A DNA stretch of 64,000 bases from the human T2T-CHM13v2.0 reference genome, Homo sapiens, in assembly GCF_009914755.1 (NCBI RefSeq), contig NC_060938.1. One strand, written 5' to 3'. Shown piece after piece: positions 17,543 through 56,873 of the stretch (its first letter is position 1; each line of letters begins with the position of its first letter). The notes under the pieces were generated by a model that worked only from the letters and a program-made list of their open reading frames with translations, was not told where the DNA came from and made no database searches. A program made the position numbers and the translations under genes.

Positions 17543-17631
17543 TTTCTTTCCATGTTTATGCTATGGAATAGAATAGCATAGCAAAAGTGGTTTCAATTCT
17601 ATTCTATAGAATAGAATAGCATGGAAAGAAA
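17543..17631. repeat. Nested inverted repeats
   Basis: tttctttccatg 17543-17554 / catggaaagaaa 17620-17631; perfect 22-bp palindrome attctattctatagaatagaat 17596-17617. Confidence 0.92.
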
Positions 17632-46792: not shown

Positions 46793-48153
46793 AAAAATGC
46801 AGAGACAGAGGCTTACAGAGAGTACATAGTCTTCCCCAAGTCGCAAAGTTAATAAATGGCATTAAAATTCTGTCTTCTTGATACTGAGCCCATGACATTT
46901 CCAGTGGTCATCGTGACTGCTGTGGTACCCAAATGACTTGAAAAAGAGCATATTCGGGTTTATAGCACACATGTACACACTCCTACACCGGCATACACAA
47001 ACACACATACACACTATTTATTTGAACTTCCAAGATATTTATGATCTAAAAAACTGTAATAAGCTGTCAAAATTATTTCTTAAAAATAAAGGTGAGAATT
47101 TACCACCAACATACTTCACCAAAGAAACGTATAAATGATGTACATAATTGAGAAGGGAAAAGATGCAGCAATGAGGTCTGAGATACAAGAAGGAACCATG
47201 AACAAGATTGGAAAACACAAAAGGAAAATCTAAGCAAACACCAATTGAGTTCAACAATAATAATGCTAATGGATATGATTAAATATAATATAAAACTACG
47301 TTTCTGGAAAACAACAGAGTAGAGTGGCTGCTTCCATCCTAAGGATGTCATCTTCCTGTGTATCCTCTTGGTAGGTAAAGACCAGCTAGAGAGGCTCAAG
47401 ATTTTATAGGGAAAACAACATTCAGTAGGCTCAGAAGTAAGACACAAACTATGGGAAACCTTACACATATTTGTGTGTTTACTGAAATAGAACGCATTTT
47501 GTAGATGAAGACATCTAAATAAAGAAAAGAGCAGTGAAAGTTTGTGTTACTTGCCTTAGCAATAATTGGTACTTTACTAGTCAGGTTTCACAAAATGAAA
47601 GCCCCATGAGGACAGCAGGGACTGTGTCTCGCTCCCATCTACATTCCAGTTCCCAGGCGAGAAGCTGGCAAAGTCAGTGCTCAAAAGGTGTTTCTGAATT
47701 AATATACGAATTCTATTGATTAACTTCGAATTCTCCTCCCGGGAAGACGCATACATCTGCCAGAGTTTTCTCTGTGGAAGTTCCTGCTGATCCGATGTGT
47801 TGGCACCATCACTGGCATACGAACTCCAGAAATTAGTGCTTCCATTTACTCTGATACATCTGGCAAGAATATGCATTCAGGTGCCAAGGCAAGAACTGAC
47901 TCGCAAGGCTCCCGCCCTGGACACAGAAGAAACCTTCTGTGACTTCTATCCAACGTATATGGAAGGGCCACCAGAATTTCTTCTTCTTCTTCCTGCGTTT
48001 CTATGTTAACACCAGTTGCTCTCTTCCTGGCCACCAGAATGGTGTCCACGTGCACAGGAGAATGGCCAGAGGACCAGCCTAGCGGCCCGATACTTCCACC
48101 ATGTGCGCCGTGCTGTCCTGTTCCAGGCACTGAACACCTTCCACATGGTTGGT

Positions 48154-54848: not shown

Positions 54849-55055
54849 CAGAGGTCAGCAAACTACAGCCCATGGGCCAAAATCAGCCCCAGCCGGTTTT
54901 TATATGGCATATGAGCTATGAAAGCTCTTTAAATTTTCATGGGGTTGTAAATAAATAAATAAAATTTTATAAATATGCGACCACACTCTACATGGCCTGC
55001 AAAGCCTGAAATATTTATTAGCTGGCCCTTTACAGAAAAATGTTCCCAGCCCCTC
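54849..55055. mobile_element. MER58A
   Basis: cagaggtcagcaaactacagccc...ggccctttacagaaaaa; 8-bp TSD atctaggt / atctagct. Confidence 0.92.
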
Positions 55056-55292
55056 ATCTAGCTAGTCATATTATTATTTTTACATCAATTGGTTTTTTAA
55101 TATTTGCATTCCAATCTATAACCATAATTCCTACATGATTTTACTATTAATCTAACATCTCTATAGTCTCAATGCTTACCACCAGTCTTTCTCTTCAGCT
55201 TCCCCATTCTTGAGTTCTTCATTTAATTCATCGCTTGGTTAGTTGAAATTTGCTGTCAATTTCTTTCTTGTTTTTTTCAAGAAAGGCACTTA

Positions 55293-55323
55293 TGGGAAAA
55301 GCCGGGTTGAGAGGGTGAAAAAA
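55293..55323 (+). pseudogene. 5'-truncated retrocopy of pre-miR-320 (3p arm), A-tailed, TSD-flanked
   Basis: 55297-55318 aaaagccgggttgagagggtga matches miR-320a-3p AAAAGCUGGGUUGAGAGGGCGA at 20/22 (recalled sequence), preceded by precursor-type (c>t)ggg; exact 12-bp TSD aagaaaggcact 55279-55290 / 55324-55335. Confidence 0.88.
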
Positions 55324-56873
55324 AAGAAAGGCACTAACATGCTGTGTTTCTTGAGATTCTACTGTTCGATTGATAGTCCATGTTTTCTGTTTGTTTGTTT
55401 TTGATCATTTGTGTCATTATACTTACGGAGAAAAATCAGACTTAGCCCCTGCCTTCAAGTGATCTGGCTGGTTGTGAAATCTGGAGCTGGAAGTCACATT
55501 TATTTCCCTCAGAACTTTATATATCAGCCTTCTGGGGACACTGAAGGCTGTGCAACCATCTTCTGATCACCTTCTGATTTGCTGGACTTTAACATAGAAC
55601 ACTATTTCTTCCTAAGGCCTGACAGGACTCTATTGCATAACTTCTTTCAGGTTTCAGAATATCTGCCTGTTGCATTTATACCTGAAATACAACTTACCTG
55701 CAATGAGATTCTTGATTCATACCTCATATCATTTAGAACTCTATGTACTGCTCCCTGTCTTTGGGTGTGACATGTTGCTGCGGGAAAATCTAAATCTTGA
55801 TTTTTTTCTCCCACTCAGATGTCTGAAAAATTCCACATGCTTTTGGTGTTCAATAAACTAAACAGGATATGTCTTGGTGTCAAATGTTCTTTATTGACTT
55901 TTTGTAAAACGTAGTGTGGTCTTTTAATATGAATAAATTTCTTTCCTCTCTTCAGGAGAATTTTTTCCTCTAATTAGGACTATGAACAGTTGTCCCATTT
56001 GTTGATTTCTAGATTTTAGGGCCACAGATCAGTCATATAAGACATTATCTTTGTCTATTATCTTTCCTCTGATTGAGTCAATCTCTTTTTTCTGCATTCA
56101 TTTAGATTTTCTCAAGCATTTTCCCAATATCAGTTAATTCAGTATTTCAACCACATAGTTCTTTTCTTTGTTGTGATTTATTTATTGATTCTGGCATGCT
56201 GTTGTTTCAGTAATCATGTGGTTTTCTTAACTTTATCCTATCATGTTCTTTCCATCTTGTGATGTCACTAACACCTTGTTGACTACCTATTTTACTAAAC
56301 CTATGATCATATTATATTTTAGATAACACAAAGCAGCAGTTGCTAAGGATTTTCTTCAGTTTCTGGGATTATGTCTTCCTCATCTGTATTTGATATATAA
56401 TGGTCTTTAATTTTTTTATAATTGTCTTTTGATGTAGCATATTTCTAGAGTGGCCAAATTATTTCTTGTCACCTAACTTATCCTAAACAAGTGCATCGCT
56501 TCCCAAATCTTCTGTTTTCTTAAATAAAGAAACTTCTTGCTGTGAAACCGGGATCTGCTTCTTCCTCTGAGCCCCTAACAGATGTGCATGACTGGCCCCT
56601 CCACTCTTTATTAATCCACTTCATTTTCCTGGCAAGGCTAGACACTCCAGGTGGAAACAAGTTTCATAACTCCAGAAAGAGATTAGGAATAAGCAAATTT
56701 AGCTCCAACTCTATCCTGTTGCTACCTTGACTGATATAGACTGGTGTTACCTGGAGAAAATGCAGTGAATTTTCCCTGATGTTTCCTAAAGCTGCCTATT
56801 CATCTCCTCAGTCTACCTATCTCAAAGTTAGGAAATGGGGCTTTTGCCAAAAAATATCGGAGAATTTGGTTGA

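What the first reader, a model, noticed from the sequence alone, without database searches (positions are those of the whole stretch)
55279..55335. Tiny L1-mobilised retrocopy of pre-miR-320 with an altered seed
Seen: aagaaaggcact-ta-TGGG-AAAAGCCGGGTTGAGAGGGTGA-aaaaa-aagaaaggcact, i.e. about 31 bp of insert with a short A-tail between exact 12-bp direct repeats, at a tttc/aaga site resembling the L1 endonuclease target, inside an old antisense L1/HAL1. Established (recalled): miR-320a-3p is AAAAGCUGGGUUGAGAGGGCGA, preceded by CGGG in its precursor; miR-320 is a Microprocessor-independent, capped Pol II pre-miRNA with dispersed paralogues (320b-e). The insert matches 20/22, and two of its three differences are CpG-type transitions. 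Inference: it extends 4 nt 5' of the mature end, so the template was the precursor rather than the mature miRNA, copied by L1 target-primed reverse transcription and 5'-truncated. The seed changes from AAAGCUG to AAAGCCG. The U-rich upstream flank (55255-55278) might supply a weak GU-rich replacement 5' arm, and minus-strand transcription would give a near-complementary miR-320 site. Too short for usual repeat or pseudogene annotation, so it may belong to an uncatalogued set of micro-retrocopies.
Basis: partly seen in the sequence, partly recalled or inferred. Interest (0 to 1): 0.85.

Follow-up and report, generated by a model that had tools for sequence, protein, structure and literature searches.

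The report
Truncated retrocopy of the miR-320 precursor
A 33-base fragment of the microRNA miR-320 precursor was pasted into chromosome 14 by the LINE-1 copy-and-paste machinery; it is a dead molecular fossil rather than a working microRNA gene, and one of about twenty such copies in the human genome.

Summary
AAGAAAGGCACT occurs at 55279-55290 and 55324-55335. The 33 nt between are TA, TGGG, a 22-mer matching the 3p arm of the chr8 mir-320 locus at 20 of 22, and five A.

Rfam mir-320 is the only meaningful hit (36.3 bits, below the 55.5 cut-off). The insert alone gives 34.3 bits, so the T-rich upstream flank is not a 5' arm. The + strand folds no better than shuffles.

The same genome holds at least 18 other dispersed mir-320 copies. 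They start at one point (GCC...), end in A-runs, and 11 of 18 have their own flanking duplications against 6 of 108 decoys. The short precursor RNA is therefore a recurrent LINE-1 template, and this locus is a 5'-truncated member.

It is the only truncated copy I found: 80 of 81 other core matches were inspected.

Not supported:
- the host "old L1/HAL1";
- a replacement 5' arm;
- a wider set of miR-320 micro-copies.

Not testable here:
- the empty site in other primates;
- expression.

The insert lies antisense in exon 1 of predicted lncRNA LOC105370658, giving a near-perfect miR-320 site.

Verdict: a real, ordinary retropseudogene fragment.

The parts
55275..55282 (+). Insertion target TTTC|AAGA. 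On the bottom strand this reads TCTT/GA at the presumed first nick.
   Evidence: sequence. It departs at two positions from the L1 endonuclease consensus TT|AAAA (consensus recalled, not tested).
55279..55290 (+). Upstream copy of the target-site duplication, AAGAAAGGCACT
   Evidence: 12 of 12 identical to 55324-55335.
55291..55292 (+). Two bases (TA) at the 5' junction that match neither the source nor the target
   Evidence: alignment: the source has GT here. I infer junction filler.
55293..55296 (+). TGGG, the last 4 nt of the precursor loop/stem before the mature 3p sequence (source CGGG)
   Evidence: This shows the template was longer than the mature miRNA.
55297..55318 (+). 22-nt miR-320-3p-like stretch, 20 of 22 to the chr8 source. 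Seed position 7 is T>C (55303); position 20 is C>T (55316).
   Evidence: Rfam RF00736 alignment.
55319..55323 (+). Rest of the A-run. Counting 55318 there are 6 A after GGGTG, and the source has 5 A here.
55324..55335 (+). Downstream copy of the target-site duplication, AAGAAAGGCACT
55180..55491 (-). Exon 1 of predicted lncRNA LOC105370658 (XR_007085000.1). It contains the insert in antisense, which gives a site pairing to the source 3p arm with 20 Watson-Crick pairs plus 1 G:U of 22.
   Evidence: Exon coordinates come from the hub's annotation. A GT donor sits on the minus strand at 55179-55178. Duplex energy is -37.1 kcal/mol against -42.9 for a perfect site. Expression was not tested.

Best explanation
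The element is a retropseudogene fragment. An RNA carrying the 3' half of the miR-320 precursor was reverse-transcribed at a staggered nick in chr14 by the LINE-1 machinery (target-primed reverse transcription). The RNA was transcribed from the chr8 mir-320 locus or from a copy of it.

Proposed sequence of events (all inferred):
1. The primer was the T-rich end of the nicked bottom strand, annealed to the A-run that follows the 3p arm.
2. Copying stopped, or the template ended, 4 nt before the mature 5' end. That left 26 nt of precursor plus the A-run.
3. Two filler bases were added at the 5' junction.
4. Repair of the 12-nt stagger produced the duplication AAGAAAGGCACT.
5. After insertion, both source CpGs decayed to TpG and one T>C change hit seed position 7.

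Shown directly: the anatomy, the homology, the lack of a 5' arm and of a hairpin, and the existence of a family of like copies. Inferred: the enzyme, the order of events and the post-insertion timing of the three changes.

On the + strand it does nothing as a miRNA gene. Its only plausible activity is passive. In the minus-strand lncRNA exon it reads as a near-perfect miR-320 target site.
For: - Anatomy: an exact 12-nt duplication abuts a 33-nt insert that ends in an A-run.
- Homology: Rfam RF00736 mir-320 is the top hit, with local E = 6.9e-7 for 55246-55330 and 4.3e-7 for the insert alone, covering model positions 37-76. The 22-mer matches the chr8 locus at 20 of 22, and the 26-nt stretch at 23 of 26.
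- Family context: RF00736 finds 14 loci over the cut-off and more below it in this genome. In the alignment, 18 non-source copies lose similarity to the source upstream of GCC. 0 of 18 keep the source's C before it, and 9 of 18 have an extra G there. They run into A-rich tails.
- 11 of the 18 have a flanking direct repeat scoring 8 or more, against 6 of 108 decoy positions in the same loci. The chr8 locus has none of these marks and sits behind a GC-rich promoter-like flank.
- This copy differs from the source at 3 of 26 positions, inside the 2-6 range of the other copies.
- No hairpin: z = +0.12 against -4.43 for the source.
Against: - The A-run is short (6 A) and 5 of those A are present in the source, so a true poly(A) tail is not shown.
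- The target TC|AAGA departs at two positions from the recalled L1 consensus TT|AAAA.
- The empty site could not be examined. No primate genome is on hand, and the flanks have no paralogue.
- With only 26 nt of homology, I cannot tell the short capped precursor from a longer read-through RNA as template, or the chr8 locus from a paralogue as source.
- No copy in the genome carries both TGGG and GTGA together with the C at position 7. The three changes are therefore assumed, not shown, to have arisen after insertion.
Confidence: 0.88

Rival explanations
1. A miR-320-derived RNA or cDNA fragment was captured as filler during repair of a double-strand break, independently of the L1 endonuclease. 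The 12-nt repeat would come from fill-in of a staggered break.
For: The A-run needs only one untemplated A. There are two filler bases at the 5' junction. The target fits the recalled L1 consensus only partly.
Against: A 12-nt duplication beginning with AAGA directly after a T-run is the typical L1 outcome (recalled). In the same genome, 11 of 18 copies of the same RNA show flanking duplications, most of them beginning with A-rich sequence. One mechanism for all of them is simpler.
Confidence: 0.05
2. A once full-length mir-320 copy whose 5' arm has decayed into the T-rich tract 55255-55278. The 12-nt repeat would be a later local duplication.
For: cmscan aligns the whole model (positions 1-76) to 55246-55330 and places the T/C-rich flank on the 5' arm.
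Against: - The flank adds only 2 bits (36.3 against 34.3 for the insert alone).
- The alignment needs a 12-nt loop insertion that is exactly the first repeat copy.
- The stretch does not fold.
- Every clearly full-length copy aligned and scored by cmscan reaches 41.8 bits or more, apart from the two internally deleted ones (33.2 and 27.8 bits).
Confidence: 0.02
3. Chance resemblance of a purine-rich 22-mer next to a chance direct repeat.
For: The miR-320 core has many near matches in the genome: 98 at up to 2 mismatches in 19 nt, some inside L1 ORF2 sequence.
Against: At 25 nt with up to 3 mismatches there are 8 hits against 0 control, 6 of the other 7 being family members. Of 80 other core hits inspected, 4 are followed by A-rich sequence and 0 of those 4 has a flanking repeat of 7 nt or more. 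This locus has both.
Confidence: 0.02

Closest known systems
The dispersed human mir-320 paralogues. By recollection these are MIR320B1/B2, C1/C2, D1/D2 and E, plus unnamed copies at chr8:48.27 Mb, chr6:114.89 and 115.36 Mb, chr9:4.38 Mb, chr1:172.92 Mb, chr11:66.65 Mb, chr18:65.52 Mb, chr4:154.75 Mb, chr10:74.49 Mb, chr16:10.34 Mb and chr22:28.36 Mb (T2T coordinates).
   Same: Same source RNA, same A-rich 3' end, own flanking duplications, same decay of the source CpGs.
   Different: Those copies are full length or have internal deletions, keep both arms, and mostly pass the Rfam cut-off. This one keeps only the last 26 nt, has no 5' arm, scores 36.3 bits and cannot fold.
L1-mobilised retropseudogenes of small non-coding RNAs: snoRNA retroposons, hY RNA and U6 retropseudogenes (recalled from the literature, not read here).
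   Same: A short non-mRNA template, flanking duplications, an A-rich end, an A-rich target.
   Different: The template here is a roughly 60-nt RNA polymerase II precursor of a miRNA, and the copy is far shorter than the usual annotated examples.
Class 1 templated sequence insertions (short L1-type insertions with duplication and A-tail; recalled, not read here).
   Same: Tens of bases of a distant transcript inserted with a duplication at an L1-like site.
   Different: Those were described as polymorphisms from mRNAs. Fixation status here is unknown, and the source is a miRNA precursor.
'TE-derived miRNA' listings of mir-320 paralogues.
   Same: They concern the same family.
   Different: A table in PMC10136691 (passage read) assigns 320b-2 to L2, c-1 to RTE, c-2 to a DNA transposon, d-1 to L1 and d-2 to CR1. 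PMC7345915 (passage read) assigns d-1 to L1MEd. Five unrelated host repeats for one sequence family fit insertion into those repeats rather than origin from them.

Membership tests
L1-type processed retrocopy (retropseudogene) | Flanking target-site duplication of about 7-20 nt | tested here: met
   12 of 12 exact, 55279-55290 and 55324-55335. Background of such repeats in the window is given.
L1-type processed retrocopy (retropseudogene) | Untemplated 3' poly(A) abutting the downstream duplication | tested here: inconclusive
   6 A are present, but the source has 5 A at the same place. Only 1 A is certainly untemplated.
L1-type processed retrocopy (retropseudogene) | Insertion at an L1 endonuclease-like site (TT|AAAA, recalled) | tested here: inconclusive
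   The site reads TC|AAGA after a run of seven T. That is two departures from the consensus.
L1-type processed retrocopy (retropseudogene) | Homology to a transcribed source that ends at the transcript's limits and lacks the source's flanks | tested here: met
   23 of 26 to chr8 L009. No similarity past the A-run, where the source continues GGATGAGG.
L1-type processed retrocopy (retropseudogene) | Empty site with one duplication copy in genomes that diverged before insertion | not testable with these tools
   No primate genomes are held. The flanks have no paralogue in this genome.
mir-320 miRNA gene (Rfam RF00736) | Score at or above the gathering cut-off of 55.5 bits | tested here: not met
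   36.3 bits. No family passes its cut-off anywhere in the window.
mir-320 miRNA gene (Rfam RF00736) | Stable hairpin with a 5' arm pairing to the 3p arm | tested here: not met
   -15.7 kcal/mol, z = +0.12, and the 3p stretch is not paired to the flank in the centroid structure. The source folds at -43.3 kcal/mol, z = -4.43.
mir-320 miRNA gene (Rfam RF00736) | Family seed at positions 2-8 | tested here: not met
   Position 7 is T>C. 16 of the other 18 copies keep T at that position.

The most novel reading that the evidence does not exclude
The retrocopy created a near-perfect miR-320 target site in exon 1 of the spliced minus-strand lncRNA LOC105370658. The site has 20 Watson-Crick pairs plus one G:U of 22 and is fully paired across positions 9-12. 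Abundant miR-320 would therefore slice this transcript, or be titrated by it. That would be a miRNA response element born by retroposition of the miRNA's own precursor. More broadly, the roughly 20 genomic fossils record the start (GCC..., with an extra G in 9 of 18 that would fit a copied cap) and the 3' end of the capped precursor RNA. They would also show that the mir-320b-e 'genes' are retrocopies rather than TE-derived miRNAs.
Probability: 0.12. Interest if true: 0.5.

Novelty: new member of a known kind. Interest (0 to 1): 0.4.

Why it matters
On its own this is a small, inert fossil. Its value lies in three points.

1. It shows that L1-type insertions of only about 30 nt from a miRNA precursor exist. 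They can be recognised from raw sequence, yet they fall below the size that repeat and pseudogene annotation catches.

2. It led to a genome-wide picture. The short miR-320 precursor RNA has been copied back into the human genome about twenty times. The copies start at a common 5' end and often carry an extra G there. This bears on how the named paralogues mir-320b-e arose, and on tables that list them as derived from five different transposon families. In nine word searches of the held open-access library I found no paper that states the retrocopy origin. The key biogenesis paper, Xie et al. 2013, is not held, so the point may already be in print.

3. Near-identical copies and antisense copies matter for mapping miR-320 isomiR reads and for predicting targets.

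Tried and rejected
- Empty-site test through paralogous repeat copies. Genome searches with 54950-55650, 55100-55290 and 55324-55520 gave only self hits for the flanks. The only repeated part is 54990-55061, about 220 nt upstream. No test was possible.

- Host-repeat identity. Stop-to-stop frames in 55050-55750 show nothing L1-like. This was dropped and the host stays unidentified.

- Replacement 5' arm. Rejected.

- Other truncated miR-320 copies, first scan. The 19-nt core at up to 2 mismatches gave 98 hits against 26 for the reversed control. The control contains a CpG and so undercounts. 17 hits are family loci including this one. 80 of the other 81 were fetched and inspected; the chrY hit was not fetched. 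4 of the 80 are A-rich downstream, and 0 of those 4 has a flanking repeat. Several are L1 ORF2 pieces, by my recognition of the sequence.

- Other truncated miR-320 copies, second scan. A motif for the 3' end plus A-run at up to 1 mismatch gave 21 hits against 17 control. 6 are family loci. None of the other 15 extends the homology upstream with a clear duplication.

- Variant-specific reads. The 19-nt variant string occurs in 0 main texts of the library. Supplements, where isomiR tables sit, were not searched.

Full report
**Observation**

The window reads ...TTGTTTTTTTC AAGAAAGGCACT TA TGGG AAAAGCCGGGTTGAGAGGGTGA AAAAA AAGAAAGGCACT AACATG.... The repeat finder reports one direct-repeat family in 55100-55500: two exact 12-nt copies at 55279-55290 and 55324-55335.

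**Identity of the insert**

I did not use any remembered miRNA sequence. Two tool results carry the comparison:
- Rfam's mir-320 model (RF00736) is the only meaningful match in 55150-55450, at 36.3 bits with local E = 6.9e-7. That is below the family cut-off of 55.5.
- No Rfam family passes its cut-off anywhere in the window.

The same model run over the whole assembly puts chr8:22.5 Mb first at 92.3 bits. That locus has a GC-rich upstream flank, no A-tail and no flanking repeat. I take it as the parent gene; by recollection it is MIR320A.

Against it, the 22-mer at 55297-55318 matches at 20 of 22 (position 7 T>C, position 20 C>T). The preceding TGGG matches CGGG. Homology therefore starts 4 nt before the mature 5' end. 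Two of the three differences are C>T at source CpGs, and the third creates a CpG.

**Is the upstream T-rich flank a 5' arm?**

It is not.
- cmscan does align the flank to the 5' arm. The insert alone (55291-55340) already scores 34.3 bits, so the flank adds 2 bits.
- The alignment needs a 12-nt loop insertion that is exactly the first repeat copy.
- The 85-nt stretch folds at -15.7 kcal/mol, z = +0.12, and 104 of 200 shuffles fold at least as well.
- The chr8 locus folds at -43.3 kcal/mol, z = -4.43, with 0 of 200 shuffles as good.

The + strand is not a precursor-like hairpin.

**Family context**

RF00736 finds 14 loci over the cut-off, and further recognisable copies below it. I aligned 18 non-source copies with the source. 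The results:
- Similarity to the source begins at GCC TTCTC... in 14 of 18 copies, and within a few bases of it in the rest.
- 0 of 18 keep the source's C in front of that G.
- 9 of 18 have a G there instead.
- All run into A-rich tails soon after the 3p arm, often after GAAAAG, which matches the source's GAAAAAGG.

A scripted search finds a flanking direct repeat (8 nt or more exact, or 10 nt or more with one mismatch, ending within 8 nt of the 5' end) in 11 of 18 copies. It finds one in 6 of 108 decoy positions placed 500-1100 nt away in the same loci (examples). The best examples are 15 exact nt at chr1:223.4 Mb and 13 exact nt at chr8:48.27 Mb.

These are the marks of L1-type retroposition of one short RNA with a fixed 5' end. 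From memory, not tested here: the miR-320a precursor is a capped RNA polymerase II transcript whose 5' end is the transcription start (Xie et al. 2013, not held). An extra 5' G on retrocopies is usually read as a copied cap.

The chr14 element fits as a 5'-truncated member. It differs from the source at 3 of the 26 shared positions, within the 2-6 range seen in the other copies.

**Chance**

- The 25-mer of the insert with up to 3 mismatches has 8 genomic hits against 0 for the reversed control. Six of the other seven are family loci.
- The window has 16 non-simple exact direct repeats of 12 nt or more at spacing 20-80, mostly inside tandem arrays.
- Of 80 other near matches to the 19-nt core, 4 are followed by A-rich sequence, and none of those has a flanking repeat. 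This locus passes both tests with the same script.

**Is there a set of such micro-copies?**

For miR-320 there is not, at the stringency I could use.
- The core scan gave 98 hits against 26 control. The reversed control holds a CpG and undercounts. Several extra hits sit in what I recognise as L1 ORF2 sequence.
- 17 hits are family loci. 80 of the other 81 were inspected; the chrY hit was not.
- A second scan for the 3' end plus A-run gave 21 hits against 17 control, 6 of them family loci.
- One of the rest, at chr2:82.89 Mb, could be a still shorter copy with a 9-nt repeat at one mismatch. It is within chance.

**Host sequence**

The flanks have no paralogue in the genome, and I see no L1-like frame. 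The 'old antisense L1/HAL1' is therefore unverified, and the empty site could not be inferred from paralogues. A repeated element does lie at 54990-55061, with at least 39 other copies at 79-94% identity.

**Mechanism**

The best reading is target-primed reverse transcription at TTTC|AAGA, primed on the A-run after the 3p arm, with early termination. Weak points:
- only one A is certainly untemplated (6 A against 5 in the source);
- the target departs at two positions from the recalled consensus;
- the template's 5' extent, and the choice between the chr8 locus and a paralogue as source, cannot be told from 26 nt.

Capture at a double-strand break independent of the endonuclease remains a minor rival.

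**Possible activity**

According to the hub's annotation the insert lies in exon 1 (55180-55491, minus strand) of predicted lncRNA LOC105370658. A GT donor follows the exon end on the minus strand. That RNA would carry a site pairing to the source 3p arm with 20 Watson-Crick pairs, one G:U at position 7 and one mismatch at position 20. The duplex energy is -37.1 kcal/mol against -42.9 for a perfect site. Whether the lncRNA is expressed or targeted was not testable.

**Literature**

Nine word searches combining mir-320 with retrotransposition, target site duplication, retropos-, retrocop-, capped/paralog, primate-specific, retrotransposed, processed pseudogene and LINE-1/paralog gave no paper that states a retrocopy origin. 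I judged this from the listings, and from passages read in PMC11941479, PMC10136691, PMC8317110, PMC8071448, PMC8728216, PMC4838339, PMC7345915 and PMC3088569.

Two tables list the paralogues as derived from L2, RTE, a DNA transposon, L1 and CR1. I read this as the hosts they landed in. Subscription papers and supplements were not searched, so the point may be in print.

**Verdict**

The element is real, well explained and inert. It is a new and unusually short member of a known kind, the L1-type retropseudogene of a small RNA. The more useful by-product is the family-wide retrocopy picture.

Noticed in passing
Loci L010-L025, L029, L032 (T2T chr1:116.68, 172.92 and 223.45 Mb; chr4:154.75; chr6:114.89 and 115.36; chr8:48.27; chr9:4.38; chr10:74.49; chr11:66.65; chr13:39.95; chr16:10.34; chr18:21.87, 24.52 and 65.52; chr19:49.53; chr22:28.36; chrX:139.24 Mb): All dispersed mir-320 copies look like retrocopies of one short RNA. 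They share a common start at GCC, have A-rich ends, and 11 of 18 have their own flanking duplications against 6 of 108 decoys. 9 of 18 have an extra G at the 5' end where the source has C. About 11 of them are not named miRNA genes as far as I recall.
   Followed up: partly
Passages in PMC10136691 and PMC7345915: Published tables list mir-320b-2, c-1, c-2, d-1 and d-2 as derived from five different transposon families. This fits insertion of retrocopies into those repeats rather than origin from them.
   Followed up: partly
window 54990-55061: A repeated element with at least 39 other genomic copies at 79-94% identity. From memory it looks like the 3' end of an L2-type LINE. It was not identified with a library.
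   Followed up: no
L086, L096, L104, L109, L118, L120, L069 (various chromosomes): Pieces that I recognise as L1 ORF2 coding sequence resemble the miR-320 3p core at 17 of 19 positions by chance. This inflates genome-wide near-match counts (98 against 26 control) and could matter for read mapping and target prediction.
   Followed up: no
L149 (chr2:82892872-82892890, +): A possible still shorter miR-320 fragment: GTTGAGAGAGCAAAA between AAGTGCTGG and AAGTACTGG, after TTTA. It is too short to tell from chance.
   Followed up: no
L033 (chr21:31264292-31264359, -): A weak RF00736 match (25.5 bits) ending in GAGAGGGT followed by a pure run of about 27 A. This is a diverged body with a long clean tail, and I saw no clear flanking duplication.
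   Followed up: no
window 17566-17622: GAATAGAATAGCAT occurs twice, 43 nt apart, with a partly palindromic spacer. There is no A-tail. It is unexplained.
   Followed up: no
window 47966-48040: GGCCACCAGAAT occurs twice, 63 nt apart, around a T/C-rich stretch. There is no A-tail. This is probably chance or a small duplication.
   Followed up: no
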